64,000 nt of DNA from Antedon mediterranea (GCF_964355755.1 NC_092680.1:15633045-15697044); one strand, 5' to 3'; counted from the first letter of the stretch, positions 16,750 to 29,613 are shown. Made by a program: numbers and translations. The notes: generated by a model from the letters alone, not told the origin.

Positions 16750-16946
16750 TTGGTCCGTTATGGTTCATTTCACAAGAAAATTGATTTTATAATTCTTCGT
16801 ACAATAGGCTATAAAAAGATCAAGTGTGTTTACCAATCATTTTGCGTTCCACATAATGAACCGATCAATTGTGTTTCCGCAGTCATTGGGTAAACGCTGT
16901 GTTCATGAGGCCAATATATTATGTCTGTAACGCTTTACTGGTAAGT
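16750..16946 (+). promoter_or_regulatory. Putative TATA promoter and non-coding exon 1 serving the cGLR and/or Src copy A
   Basis: TATAAAA at 16810 and a strong donor ACTG|GTAAGT at 16940/41. The block is homologous to 34210-34404 upstream of Src copy B. Confidence 0.65.
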
Positions 16947-17259
16947 CTGTATCACATAAACGATTTTATCTATATTTTAGAATGAATGAATTATATTCTA
17001 CTGTTGTTCATTCATATACATAGACTGTAAGAATGAACGTCATGTTTATGGTAGGCCTATAAACACGATTTTCGTGCAACCAAGCCATTTTGCATAGCCT
17101 AGATGACAAACGTCGTGGTTAGCCTACTGAGATTTAAAACAAAATAAATTCTTTAAATCCATCCAAGGCCTACAGTGATGTAAGATAATCTTTGTTCAAA
17201 AATATGTTCTTATACGACCCCTTCATTCAGAATTACACTTCTAAAATTAACATAGTGTC

Positions 17260-27200: not shown

Positions 27201-29613
27201 CTCTACTGCGGGATTTTTAGAAGAGGCAAACATTATGAAACATTTTATACACAAAAACTTAGTACAGTTATATGCTATATGCTCAGATAAGGTAATTTAT
27301 TTTATATCCACTTAAATCCATTTTTAGGAAGTCGTTCTGTCTCCAAATAGAACTGGCACTGGAAAAATTCTAGAAGCAGATTGTCGGTACTTCAGTCGTA
27401 CTGTACAGGATGTGAATCATTGTATTCAATATTCTTATTCAGCAAGTGGTTGAAATAGGTTTTCTAATTTTTCAATTATGAAATTGATTGATTGATTGAA
27501 ATTTATATTTATACTGGGTAACCTTTTCAGTCAAAGACTGGTCTCCCAGAGGGCCCAGTTGGTGATCAGTAGCTGTGATGTACTAATACACCGGGGTAAC
27601 CCCCTACTCGTCTTGAAATATGTACTAGGTTCTTTAAAGTGCACACGAGCTAGATGTGTACACTGGACCTACGGTTTATAGTCCTTATCTGAGAAGACTC
27701 GTTCTCCCACCAGAACCATGGAGTGAGTGAGCCTCGAACCCTTGCCGATGTTATGGCTACGTAATTACGGTTCCGCTGTCTTAACTGCTCGGCCACTCAC
27801 TCAATATAGCAACCGTAACAATATTAATTTAACTAGTACAATCTGTTTGTACAATTTTTTATGATCTGTATAAGATTATAATCACCGTGCATTAAGATGA
27901 ACCATTTATATGAATAATAGTAATATTATAACCTAATTTGCCTTATTGTCCTTGCCCGTATAGGTTTTATTTATTTATATGTCTGTAAATATGTATAAAT
28001 ACAAAGACAAATTACCGGAAAAAAATGACAATACTGTGAGTATTAGTGGGTGGATCTCAATAGAGATACAAAGAAAAAGCGAAAAGCTAAATCAAAACAA
28101 TAAAGTAAAACAGACAGAAAGAAAGGTTGGCAGAGCTTTGGGCAACACTAGCCCTTCATCAGTGCAAGCATATTTTATGATGGAACAATAAATATGCTTA
28201 TCTTACTTTTGACAGTATGAGATACGCTGAAAAGGTTTACTATCATACACAATAATAATAGAAATTTAAAAAAAAACTCTTTTGTATTGCATAGGAACCC
28301 ATCTACATTGTCACAGAATTAATGGCCAACAGCAGCCTGCTTGAATATCTGAGAGATGGAGACGGCCGTAGCTTGAAGCTGGTTGATCTTGTTGACATGT
28401 CTGCACAGGTGAATTTTTCATGAAAATTACCTTTGTGCATACAATTTTTATGAATTTTTAAAGATGTTAGATCAATTTATATGTGCCAAGATGTTTCCAA
28501 ACATTGACCTAAATACACCATTAATTCTCGAAAAAAATTGTTGTAAATAATAACAGAGATGACTATTATTACAAAATACATTGAGAGTGCAATATATACA
28601 TTTCGGATCTTACTCTATCTCTAGATAAAAGCTATTACACAACAAATAATATATAAATACTTATGTCGTAAAATAATACATTATAATAGCAACATATAAC
28701 AACATGGATATATTTATTTGGCAGGTCGCACAAGGAATGGCATACTTGGAGATGCGGAATTACGTCCACTGTGATCTTGCAGCACGCAACATTCTGGTTG
28801 ATATAAATGGTGTGTGTAAAGTTGCGGGGTTTTTGGCTCGACGAATAATGGAAGATGATGAGTATACTCCTAGAAAAGGAGCCAGTTTCTCAATCAGATG
28901 GACTGCCCCTGAGGCTGCAATGTTTGGTCGTTTTACAATAAAATCTGATGTCTGGTCTTTTGGTATTCTTTTGACTGAGTTAGTTACACATGGACGATTT
29001 CCCTATCGGGGTATGCTACCCTTCTACTTTACTCTTTTTTTCTATTCATCGTTTTATATCCGTTTTTGTTTTTGATAGTCGCTGTAAATTTAGTTGAATT
29101 AATATTCCACCCGATTCCCAGTGCTGTATTTCCACAAACTATCTATTTCCGAAGTATCATAGGAACATTTGGTATTTTATATCACGTGGTATCATGTGAT
29201 ACCTGTATCATGTAAGGTTAGGTTAAAGGTTAGTTAGTTATTATAGATACATGTGGAACACATACAGTACAGAGAATTGGCTGAGTATGTGGTGCTTGGT
29301 GTCGCAGTTATAAGATCATTTGATATGTCAATACGGGCAACTCTATAAACATTTTTAGTACATTGACTCTACAGTGACTCTTTACGTATAATTACATTAT
29401 TTTTATATTCTTTTAGGAATGGATGAAGTACTCGAGCGAGTAGACAGGGGCTACCGAATGCCAAAGCCTTTAAACTGTCCAGAAACCTTATATATTTTAA
29501 TGAAAAACTGTTGGAATAAGGAACCATTGTTGAGGCCTACATTTGAATTCATTCATCATTACCTGGACGATTACTTTGTTGCAACAGAACCAGATTATGT
29601 AAAAATAGAATAA
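21222..29613 (+). CDS. Src-family tyrosine kinase-like gene, copy A (SH4-SH3-SH2-kinase, 493 aa if the insertion is removed); catalytic motifs degenerate; this allele is disrupted in SH2 by a transposon
   Basis: Exons 21222-21354 (MGNC), 22343-22436 (ALYDYDART), 22865-22963 (DWW..GYIPSNY), 23630-23832+26000-26053 (WYFG..FIIR..VKHYKI), 26559-26714 (GAGQFGEV), 27146-27291 (VAIK), 28295-28408, 28725-29010 ([14 protein letters not shown]), 29417-29613 (EPDY tail). Confidence 0.88.
21420..21917 (+). mobile_element. 5'-truncated Rex1/Babar-like (CR1 group) LINE in a Src copy A intron
   Basis: [14 protein letters not shown]...W.GN...RRAGKMIG...DASHPLH...PSGRLR...[11 protein letters not shown], then AATAAA and a (TATCT)n tail. 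Confidence 0.75.
23010..23420 (-). mobile_element. Decayed LINE 3' fragment (L2/Crack-like)
   Basis: Minus strand reads [28 protein letters not shown], followed by a 3' UTR and an (ATT)n tail. Confidence 0.55.
23833..25989. mobile_element. Non-autonomous TIR transposon (~1.08 kb, Mutator/MULE-like) inserted in the SH2 exon and carrying a second copy of itself
   Basis: ~90-bp TIRs GGGTGTCACGAAAGCTCAGACC.../...GCTTTCGTGACACCC; 10-bp TSD GGTTATTTCA at 23823-23832 and 25990-25999. Confidence 0.93.
24101..25170. mobile_element. Inner nested copy (1070 bp) of the same TIR element
   Basis: Identical TIRs; 9-bp TSD AAACTTGAC at 24092-24100 and 25171-25179; small indels relative to the outer copy. 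Confidence 0.93.
27520..27805 (-). mobile_element. tRNA-derived SINE with a Deu/Nin-like central domain; internal fragment also at ~21988-22082 (+)
   Basis: Minus-strand A box TGGCCGAGCAGTTAAG and B box GGTTCGAGGCTC; core GACTATAAACCGTAGGTCC...TTAAAGAACC...GAGTAGGGG...CCCCGGTG. Confidence 0.75.
28130..28165 (-). ncRNA. Degenerate minimal type I hammerhead ribozyme motif in a Penelope-type repeat fragment (~27995-28170)
   Basis: Minus strand GCA-CTGATGA-AGGGC-TAGTGTT-GCCC-AAAGC-TC-TGC; the G of GAAA is missing. Confidence 0.55.

What the first reader, a model, noticed from the sequence alone, without database searches (positions are those of the whole stretch)
16750..29613. cGAS-like receptor nested in intron 1 of a Src-family gene and apparently sharing its promoter and first exon
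Seen: the TATA box, non-coding exon and ACTG|GTAAGT donor at 16810-16946, plus the intronic block 17250-17490, are homologous to 34272-34404 and 34860-35075. In copy B those blocks lead only to the Src ATG exon (acceptor 35981). In copy A the same donor is followed first by a sense, intronless 655-aa cGLR with its own acceptor (17943), then by the paralogous Src ATG-exon acceptor (21204). Known: cGLRs are innate-immune receptors that synthesise cyclic dinucleotides for STING. Inference: one promoter yields either a cGLR or a Src-like mRNA by alternative 3' splice site/polyadenylation choice. Either the cGLR captured the kinase promoter, or it was lost from copy B. This would be a co-regulated sensor-plus-pseudokinase unit that I do not recognise as described.
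Basis: partly seen in the sequence, partly recalled or inferred. Interest (0 to 1): 0.85.

Follow-up and report, generated by a model that had tools for sequence, protein, structure and literature searches.

The report
Immune sensor upstream of decaying kinase
In a feather star, a conserved cGAS-like immune-sensor gene sits between the first two exons of a young, likely catalytically dead copy of a Src-family kinase gene and likely shares its promoter, a known kind of gene arrangement in which the kinase here is likely a passenger and not a partner.

Summary
The layout is real. An intact 655-aa cGLR exon (17969-19936) lies between a TATA/exon-1/donor block and the ATG exon of Src copy A. Tandem copy B has the homologous blocks but no cGLR. 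An RNA-type contig is spliced at the cGLR acceptor, another splices Src A exons, and an NCBI isoform splices from inside the cGLR to Src exon 2 out of frame. No exon-1 junction was seen, and a second promoter near 17450 is possible, so sharing is likely, not shown. New here: both Src copies are young duplicates of an intact kinase (tree 100/99, AU p=0.001) and have lost catalytic motifs; A also carries a polymorphic 2.2-kb insertion in its SH2 exon. The cGLR is older (85% identical to a curated Anneissia cGLR on a different contig from that species' kinase). So the kinase exons may have captured the sensor's promoter, not the reverse. Identity of the shared blocks is near the neutral level. 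The architecture matches the ChAT/VAChT and CPNE1/RBM12 loci, and this scan noted similar nested genes in other genomes. Verdict: new member of a known kind; a selected sensor-pseudokinase module is about 10% likely.

The parts
11752..13886 (+). 3' exons of a FAM221-family gene; its last two exons mark the start of the tandemly duplicated segment
   Evidence: Pfam FAM221 hits on three exons, E 7e-3 to 1.5e-5; 13045-13920 matches 30318-30828
16750..16946 (+). Promoter P1 of copy A: TATAAAA at 16810, inferred non-coding exon 1 ending at 16940, GTAAGT donor
   Evidence: sequence; homologous to 34210-34404; start site not mapped
17250..17490 (+). Intronic block shared with copy B; NF-kB-like site GGGAAATCCC at 17260-17269; TATA-like word at 17408 and a 14-nt word at 17434 shared with B; possible enhancer or second promoter P2
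   Evidence: function inferred; the kB consensus is recalled
17593..17695 (+). Candidate non-coding exon 1b with a GTAAGG donor; it may instead extend 5' to about 17450 as a first exon
   Evidence: splice signals; X1 contig 1 covers 17449-17607 unspliced and further X1 cover lies in bin 17456-17819
17944..19936 (+). Single coding exon of the cGLR: acceptor 17943, ATG 17969, 655 aa; G70-S71 and D82, D84, D180; AATAAA at 20189, 20520 and 20912
   Evidence: X1 contig 2 is laid from 17943 with 27 unlaid letters in front
19477..19483 (+). Internal GTAAGT donor, spliced to 21205 in NCBI isoform X2 (557 aa; Src exon read out of frame)
   Evidence: P0002 matches this join by inspection
21205..29613 (+). 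Src/Fyn-like copy A, 493 aa: exons 21205-21354 (ATG 21222), 22343-22436, 22865-22963, 23630-26053 (split by the insertion), 26559-26714, 27146-27291, 28295-28408, 28725-29010, 29417-29613; SH3-SH2-kinase with HRD read as HCD and no DFG
   Evidence: NCBI model P0026 covers residues 70-493
21430..21920 (+). High-copy repeat in Src A intron 2, likely the 3' end of a LINE (identification recalled; no Pfam hit), with AATAAA at 21883; ends approximate
   Evidence: depth in the thousands in all three runs; ORF 21370-21771; no Pfam family
23833..25999 (+). 2167-nt insertion in the SH2 exon of copy A with 90-nt terminal inverted repeats and a 10-nt target duplication; polymorphic
   Evidence: contigs of X1, X2 and X4 all join across the empty site (table 5)
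30318..30828 (+). Decayed copy of the last two FAM221 exons, start of duplicate unit B
34210..35075 (+). Copy B promoter, exon 1 (donor after 34398) and intronic block with a kB-like site at 34866-34875
35982..38594 (+). Src/Fyn-like copy B, 314 aa: exons 35982-36072 (ATG 36006), 36396-36527, 36983-37128, 37371-37484, 37902-38187, 38395-38594; SH3 and SH2 exons absent with the frame kept; HRD read as HRN and DFG as DVG
   Evidence: expression not tested

Best explanation
An intact cGLR exon and a young, likely catalytically dead Src-family copy lie in one likely shared transcription unit, in which the upstream exon would splice either to the cGLR acceptor or, skipping it, to the Src ATG exon, with the cGLR likely the maintained product and the kinase copy likely a passenger. 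Shown: the layout, the A/B homology, use of the cGLR acceptor, splicing of inner Src A exons, the late origin of A and B, and the lost kinase motifs. Inferred: the promoter (TATA box plus a kB-like site) fires; use of acceptor 17943 with cleavage at one of the AATAAA sites at 20189-20912 gives cGLR mRNA; skipping to 21204 gives Src A mRNA; the internal donor at 19477 gives a truncated cGLR. History, inferred: Src exons 2-10 of the intact parent were copied in behind a resident cGLR and took its promoter, the segment from the FAM221 3' end to the kinase was duplicated in tandem, and copy B then lost the cGLR and the SH3-SH2 exons (about 0.5). Insertion of the cGLR into a whole duplicated Src gene is the alternative (about 0.4).
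For: Copy B's homologous exon 1 and donor have only the Src acceptor downstream. X1 contig 2 starts on the window exactly at the cGLR acceptor with 27 other letters in front; X1 contig 8 covers Src A exon 4 and continues at the exon 5 acceptor with 1 difference in 193 letters, so it is copy A and not the parent. X1 contigs cover 18183-20272, 20275-20485, 20656-21042 and 21090-21257, from the cGLR into the Src ATG exon (separate contigs show no single transcript). NCBI isoform X2 joins 19477 to 21205. The tree is (Anneissia,(parent,(A,B))) with support 100/99 and end branches 0.23 and 0.44 against about 0 for the parent. A parent-plus-Anneissia clade is rejected, p-AU 0.001; at 48 sites where parent and Anneissia differ, A sides with the parent at 35 and with Anneissia at 4. 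The cGLR is 85% identical to Anneissia XP_033110210.1, which is in the curated cGLR table of PMC9980059. The Anneissia cGLRs lie on a 122,836-nt contig and its parent-kinase orthologue on a 638,578-nt contig. No second Antedon copy of this cGLR was among 7 hits of 5706 candidates.
Against: Neither 16940-to-17944 nor 16940-to-21205 was displayed; 15 of 38 joints were printed. The donor behind contig 2's 27 letters is unknown. X1 contig 1 runs unspliced across the 17592 acceptor, which fits a second promoter. NCBI treats Src A as a separate gene whose protein starts inside exon 3. X1 is only guessed to be RNA and is one run. dN/dS between the A and B kinase domains is 0.41 (bootstrap 0.27-0.65, 263 codons) and both frames are open, which is more constraint than a pure passenger needs. 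The direction of capture was not tested: no DNA of the parent gene or of Anneissia was available.
Confidence: 0.55

Rival explanations
1. Two promoters: P1 (TATA 16810) serves the Src copy, and the cGLR is a plainly nested gene with its own start at the 3' end of the kB block (about 17450), a first exon to 17695 and a splice to 17944.
For: X1 contig 1 covers 17449-17607 without a splice at 17592, and further X1 cover lies in 17456-17819. A TATA-like word at 17408 and a 14-nt word at 17434 are shared with copy B, with a kB-like site 190 nt upstream.
Against: Contigs cannot show a start (notice); a retained intron explains contig 1 equally well. The block is itself shared with copy B by descent, and isoform X2 still links the cGLR to Src exon 2.
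Confidence: 0.2
2. Src A has been cut off from the promoter. Its ATG exon now serves only as an alternative last exon of the cGLR, ended by the poly(A) signal of the repeat in intron 2, and the inner exons are transcribed from read-through or a cryptic start.
For: Isoform X2 reads through the 21354 donor to a stop in the intron. The NCBI Src A protein lacks the first 69 residues. AATAAA lies at 21505 and 21883.
Against: The exon-2 donor (GTAAGT), the exon-3 acceptor and the MGNC start are intact, and the 493-aa frame is open. Gene-model splitting can be an artefact of assigning exon 2 to the cGLR gene (inference).
Confidence: 0.15
3. A selected module: one NF-kB-inducible promoter makes the sensor together with a membrane-anchored SH3-SH2 pseudokinase (and, from copy B, a kinase-domain-only decoy) that damp or scaffold Src-family signalling during infection.
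For: dN/dS is 0.41 between A and B and both frames are open despite dS 0.38. The SH3-SH2 loss in B keeps the frame. Both copies keep a Gly2-Cys4 start and a kB-like site at the same place. A 23-nt run in exon 1 is identical (simulated chance 0.04 at 70% identity, 0.15 at 75%).
Against: The copies are lineage-young with long branches. The window haplotype carries a 2167-nt insertion in the SH2 exon. Block identities of 73-86% are close to the 70% seen at silent sites. The pairing is apparently absent in Anneissia.
Confidence: 0.1

Closest known systems
Cholinergic gene locus, ChAT/VAChT (Ixodes; PMC7524744, passages read)
   Same: A single-coding-exon gene inside the first intron of a multi-exon gene on the same strand, with a shared exon 1.
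   Different: There the shared exon was shown by RT-PCR, the two products work in one pathway and the layout is reported as similar across metazoans. Here sharing is unproven, the host is a young damaged duplicate, and the layout seems limited to one lineage.
CPNE1/RBM12 and the 24 human promoter-sharing pairs (PMC2568002; abstract and sections 5 and 12 read)
   Same: Unrelated coding sequences behind common 5' non-coding exons; the authors propose that polyadenylation and alternative splicing choose the product.
   Different: CPNE1/RBM12 is conserved from zebrafish to human and both genes are intact. No cGAS-family gene is in that table.
cGLR family (Li et al., PMC9980059; passages and supplement rows seen); nearest member Anneissia XP_033110210.1
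   Same: GS loop and three acidic residues, NTase core plus helical bundle, cGAS-like fold, basic core (pI 9.1 for residues 15-360).
   Different: The strict motif is relaxed (Ile before GS, D-R-D, 95-residue spacer). It has a helical C-terminal extension of about 235 residues that resembles unnamed mollusc-rich clusters. No activity or ligand is known.
Echinoderm Fyn/Yes/Yrk-like Src-family kinases; intact parent XP_071965773.1 (P0032)
   Same: Copy A is 82% (402 of 492) and copy B 75% (236 of 313) identical to the parent; copy A keeps the MGNC start, SH3, SH2 and the C-terminal Tyr.
   Different: A has HCD and no DFG. B has HRN and DVG, and lacks SH3, SH2 and the tail Tyr.

Membership tests
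cGLR (PMC9980059 criteria) | G[S/G] loop and acidic catalytic triad | tested here: met
   G70, S71, D82, D84 and D180 are conserved in at least 90% of 60 aligned relatives
cGLR (PMC9980059 criteria) | Strict pattern h[QT]GS X8-20 [DE]h[DE]h X50-90 h[DE]h | tested here: inconclusive
   Ile replaces Q/T, Arg sits between D82 and D84, and the spacer is 95 residues. The Anneissia orthologue has the same departures and is in the curated table
cGLR (PMC9980059 criteria) | Homology over both the NTase core and the helical bundle | tested here: met
   Pfam Mab-21 (37.9 bits) and Mab-21_C (40.7 bits), cut-off 24.1; best solved sequence match is Cv-cGLR1, 8gjw, E 3.6e-6
cGLR (PMC9980059 criteria) | Predicted structural homology to cGAS/cGLR | tested here: met
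   Model pLDDT 84, pTM 0.84; top fold match 8gjw, E 6e-11, TM 0.69 on the target, followed by cGAS entries
cGLR (PMC9980059 criteria) | Ligand-dependent synthesis of a cyclic dinucleotide | not testable with these tools
   needs biochemistry
Shared-first-exon nested pair (ChAT/VAChT, CPNE1/RBM12 type) | Same-strand single-coding-exon gene between host exon 1 and exon 2, with its own acceptor | tested here: met
Shared-first-exon nested pair (ChAT/VAChT, CPNE1/RBM12 type) | Transcripts joining the same first exon to both genes | tested here: inconclusive
   the cGLR acceptor is used but its donor is unknown; no exon-1 joint among the 15 of 38 joints printed
Shared-first-exon nested pair (ChAT/VAChT, CPNE1/RBM12 type) | Conservation of the layout across species (sign of function; true of the classic pairs) | tested here: inconclusive
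   indirect and against: the Anneissia cGLRs and kinase are on contigs of different length and the Src copies postdate the split; no relative's DNA could be read
Active Src-family kinase | HRD and DFG motifs | tested here: not met
   A: HCD and no DFG; B: HRN and DVG; activity not assayed
Active Src-family kinase | Gly2 start, SH3, SH2, C-terminal Tyr | tested here: inconclusive
   met in A on the insertion-free allele; SH3, SH2 and tail Tyr are absent in B
Retrocopy origin of the cGLR | Poly(A) tail, target duplication and an intron-containing parent | tested here: inconclusive
   no flanking direct repeat longer than 9 nt between 17440-17620 and 19936-21200; no parent found; the exon structure of the Anneissia gene was not available

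The most novel reading that the evidence does not exclude
A duplicated Src kinase docked behind an NF-kB-driven cGLR, took over its promoter and was converted into infection-induced pseudokinase decoys (an SH3-SH2 form spliced around the sensor exon and a kinase-only form in the tandem copy), so that one splice and poly(A) choice sets the ratio of nucleic-acid sensor to Src-signalling damper.
Probability: 0.1. Interest if true: 0.75.

Novelty: new member of a known kind. Interest (0 to 1): 0.35.

Why it matters
As it most likely stands, the locus is a clear, roughly datable case of promoter capture between an immune gene and a duplicated kinase. The tandem copy lacking the cGLR is a built-in control, and it shows how gene models get split when an exon is claimed by two genes. 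If the module reading held, it would tie cGLR sensing to Src-family regulation in an invertebrate deuterostome by a single splice choice. Three paper searches (listings only, open-access library only) showed no title on such a pairing.

Tried and rejected
No whole genome is held, so the parent kinase's 5' end could not be compared. The run search listed no holder on record as RNA; X1 is a guess. Reads could be laid only on 16000-26900, so the kinase exons of A beyond it and all of copy B are untested for expression. X1 shows no cover at 17836, almost none in bin 17092-17455 and none in bin 22188-22551, which holds Src exon 3; lack of cover in contigs proves nothing and is not counted. X1 cover in bin 16728-17091 is not counted as exon-1 expression, because the DNA runs show extra depth there beside a high-copy repeat. 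The X1 allele of the cGLR has 14 printed coding differences (5 silent, 9 missense, no stop), but 43 rows of that table and the places of 9 gap letters in contig 3 were not printed. A remnant of the cGLR in copy B was sought and not found. An in-frame cGLR-Src fusion through the 19477 donor was rejected, since the Src exon is read out of frame. A kinase search with too strict a cut-off returned mostly multi-domain proteins. No Anneissia copy of Src A was among the best 120 of 3684 hits; a short or unannotated copy is not excluded. Paper searches for the Anneissia or Antedon record numbers and gene order gave nothing usable. A single-sequence fold failed (pLDDT 33). A bacterial promoter scan was irrelevant. 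Searches on Src kinases with cGAS-STING and on cGLR induction were seen as listings only and are not used as evidence. No binding prediction was run, because no binding is claimed.

Full report
Observation. TATAAAA lies at 16810 and 34272, ACTG|GTAAGT donors follow 16940 and 34398, and AG acceptors end at 17943, 21204 and 35981. Three blocks of copy A align to copy B well above 200 shuffles each: promoter and exon 1 (score 268, shuffle maximum 109), the intronic block (164 against 106) and the ATG-exon region (151 against 57). A and B are therefore a tandem segmental duplication.

The cGLR. The ORF has both Mab-21 Pfam domains above cut-off. Its fold model from a 60-sequence alignment is good (pLDDT 84) and matches the oyster Cv-cGLR1 structure first and then cGAS. 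G70, S71, D82, D84 and D180 are conserved in at least 90% of the aligned relatives. The strict published pattern is not met letter for letter, but the Anneissia japonica orthologue (85% identical over the whole length) has the same departures and is in the curated table of PMC9980059, which counts 47 cGLRs in that species (supplement rows seen). It belongs to a large group of relatives: 1313 representatives at E up to 1e-10, many of 600-750 residues. The named near-identical proteins are from Antedon mediterranea, so the window is from a feather star. Enzyme activity is untested.

The kinases. Joined by their splice signals, copy A gives an open 493-aa SH3-SH2-kinase and copy B an open 314-aa protein that lacks the SH3 and SH2 exons with the frame kept. 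A has HCD for HRD and no DFG; B has HRN and DVG. By the established roles of these motifs (recalled) both are likely catalytically dead. An intact parent, P0032, lies on a contig of the same length (22.27 Mb) but outside the window, and its Anneissia orthologue is P0150. A 12-protein tree places A and B together (91/86) inside a clade with the Antedon parent (100/99), on long branches. Holding parent and Anneissia together is rejected (p-AU 0.001), and A sides with the parent at 35 of 48 diagnostic sites. So A and B arose after the two feather-star lineages split, whereas the cGLR orthology spans that split. The window haplotype also carries a 2167-nt element with terminal inverted repeats inside A's SH2 exon; contigs of all three runs laid join across the empty site. 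Against simple decay: dN/dS between the A and B kinase domains is 0.41 (0.27-0.65; dS 0.38; 263 codons).

RNA evidence. One run (X1, guessed to be RNA, a different sample from X2 and X4) was laid on 16000-26900. Contig 2 is laid from the cGLR acceptor onward with 27 unlaid letters in front, as a spliced mRNA would be; the donor is not shown. Contig 8 covers Src A exon 4, continues at the exon 5 acceptor and matches A, not the parent. Contigs 3-7 cover the cGLR and most of the intron up to and across the Src acceptor, unspliced. Contig 1 covers 17449-17607 across the candidate exon-1b acceptor. No exon-1 joint is among the 15 of 38 joints printed. Independently, NCBI's 'cGLR2 isoform X2' (P0002) matches a splice from 19477 inside the cGLR to 21205, read out of frame to a stop just past the Src donor. 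That such a model rests on RNA alignments is my inference. NCBI's Src A protein (P0026) is a separate record that starts inside exon 3.

Regulatory blocks. A kB-like 10-mer (recalled consensus) occurs at homologous places in both copies, 17260 and 34866. The window has 7 matches at 5 places against a shuffle mean of 1.7, and 1 of 100 shuffles reached 7. Block identities are 60 of 70 (promoter), 69 of 89 (exon 1) and 157 of 215 (intronic block), against 70% at silent sites. The homology therefore shows common descent and at most mild constraint; the longest exact run (23 nt) has a simulated chance of 0.04-0.15. The 3' end of the intronic block has a TATA-like word and a shared 14-mer just where X1 contig 1 begins, so a second promoter is possible, although contigs cannot show starts.

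Mechanism. Most likely one transcription unit (0.55): the upstream exon splices to 17944 and the RNA is cut at an AATAAA after the cGLR, or it skips to 21205 and continues through the kinase. This is the choice proposed for CPNE1/RBM12. The rivals are separate promoters (0.2), a kinase cut off from the promoter (0.15) and a selected sensor-pseudokinase module (0.1). The cGLR's age, the lack of a second Antedon copy among 7 hits and the separate Anneissia contigs fit this, but the direction is untested.

Comparison and verdict. A single-coding-exon gene in a host's first intron with a shared exon 1 is the ChAT/VAChT layout (PMC7524744, passages), and 24 human promoter-sharing pairs are tabulated in PMC2568002 (section 5). 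This scan's notes hold six similar nested cases in other genomes (unchecked). I found no title on a cGLR paired with a Src-family gene (listings only; subscription papers and unseen supplements may differ). The finding is real and neatly controlled by its tandem copy, but it is a new member of a known kind, and the host is a young, damaged duplicate. Interest 0.35.

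Noticed in passing
window 23833-25999: Non-coding element with 90-nt terminal inverted repeats, a 10-nt target duplication and internal duplications, segregating in the SH2 exon of Src copy A; a Mutator-like origin is a recalled guess.
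   Followed up: partly
window 35982-38594: Copy B is a clean in-frame loss of SH3 and SH2 (phase 1 to phase 1), leaving a predicted myristoylated kinase-domain-only pseudokinase.
   Followed up: partly
window 31574-33300, minus strand: A probable multi-exon gene starting MGSC, divergent from the copy B promoter, with no Pfam hit on two exons and no counterpart before copy A.
   Followed up: partly
window 16838-16940: Exon 1 of copy A has three upstream ATGs, two of which overlap the Src start out of frame when joined to 21205; copy B's leader has none (exon start assumed).
   Followed up: no
window 49354-59222: RRM gene resembling RBM8A/Y14 (name recalled; Pfam RRM_1 on one exon), head to head with an unexamined minus-strand exon near 49100.
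   Followed up: partly
window 40500-46840: Nest of inverted and tandem repeats with 21-nt-unit arrays, probably stacked non-coding elements.
   Followed up: no
Anneissia proteins P0001 and P0003: Two cGLR paralogues with near-adjacent record numbers on one 122,836-nt contig; the gene between them could not be identified.
   Followed up: partly
window 6697-7068, minus strand: ORF with a hydrophobic leader and acidic stretch, possibly the first exon of a secreted protein, divergent from the FAM221 gene.
   Followed up: no
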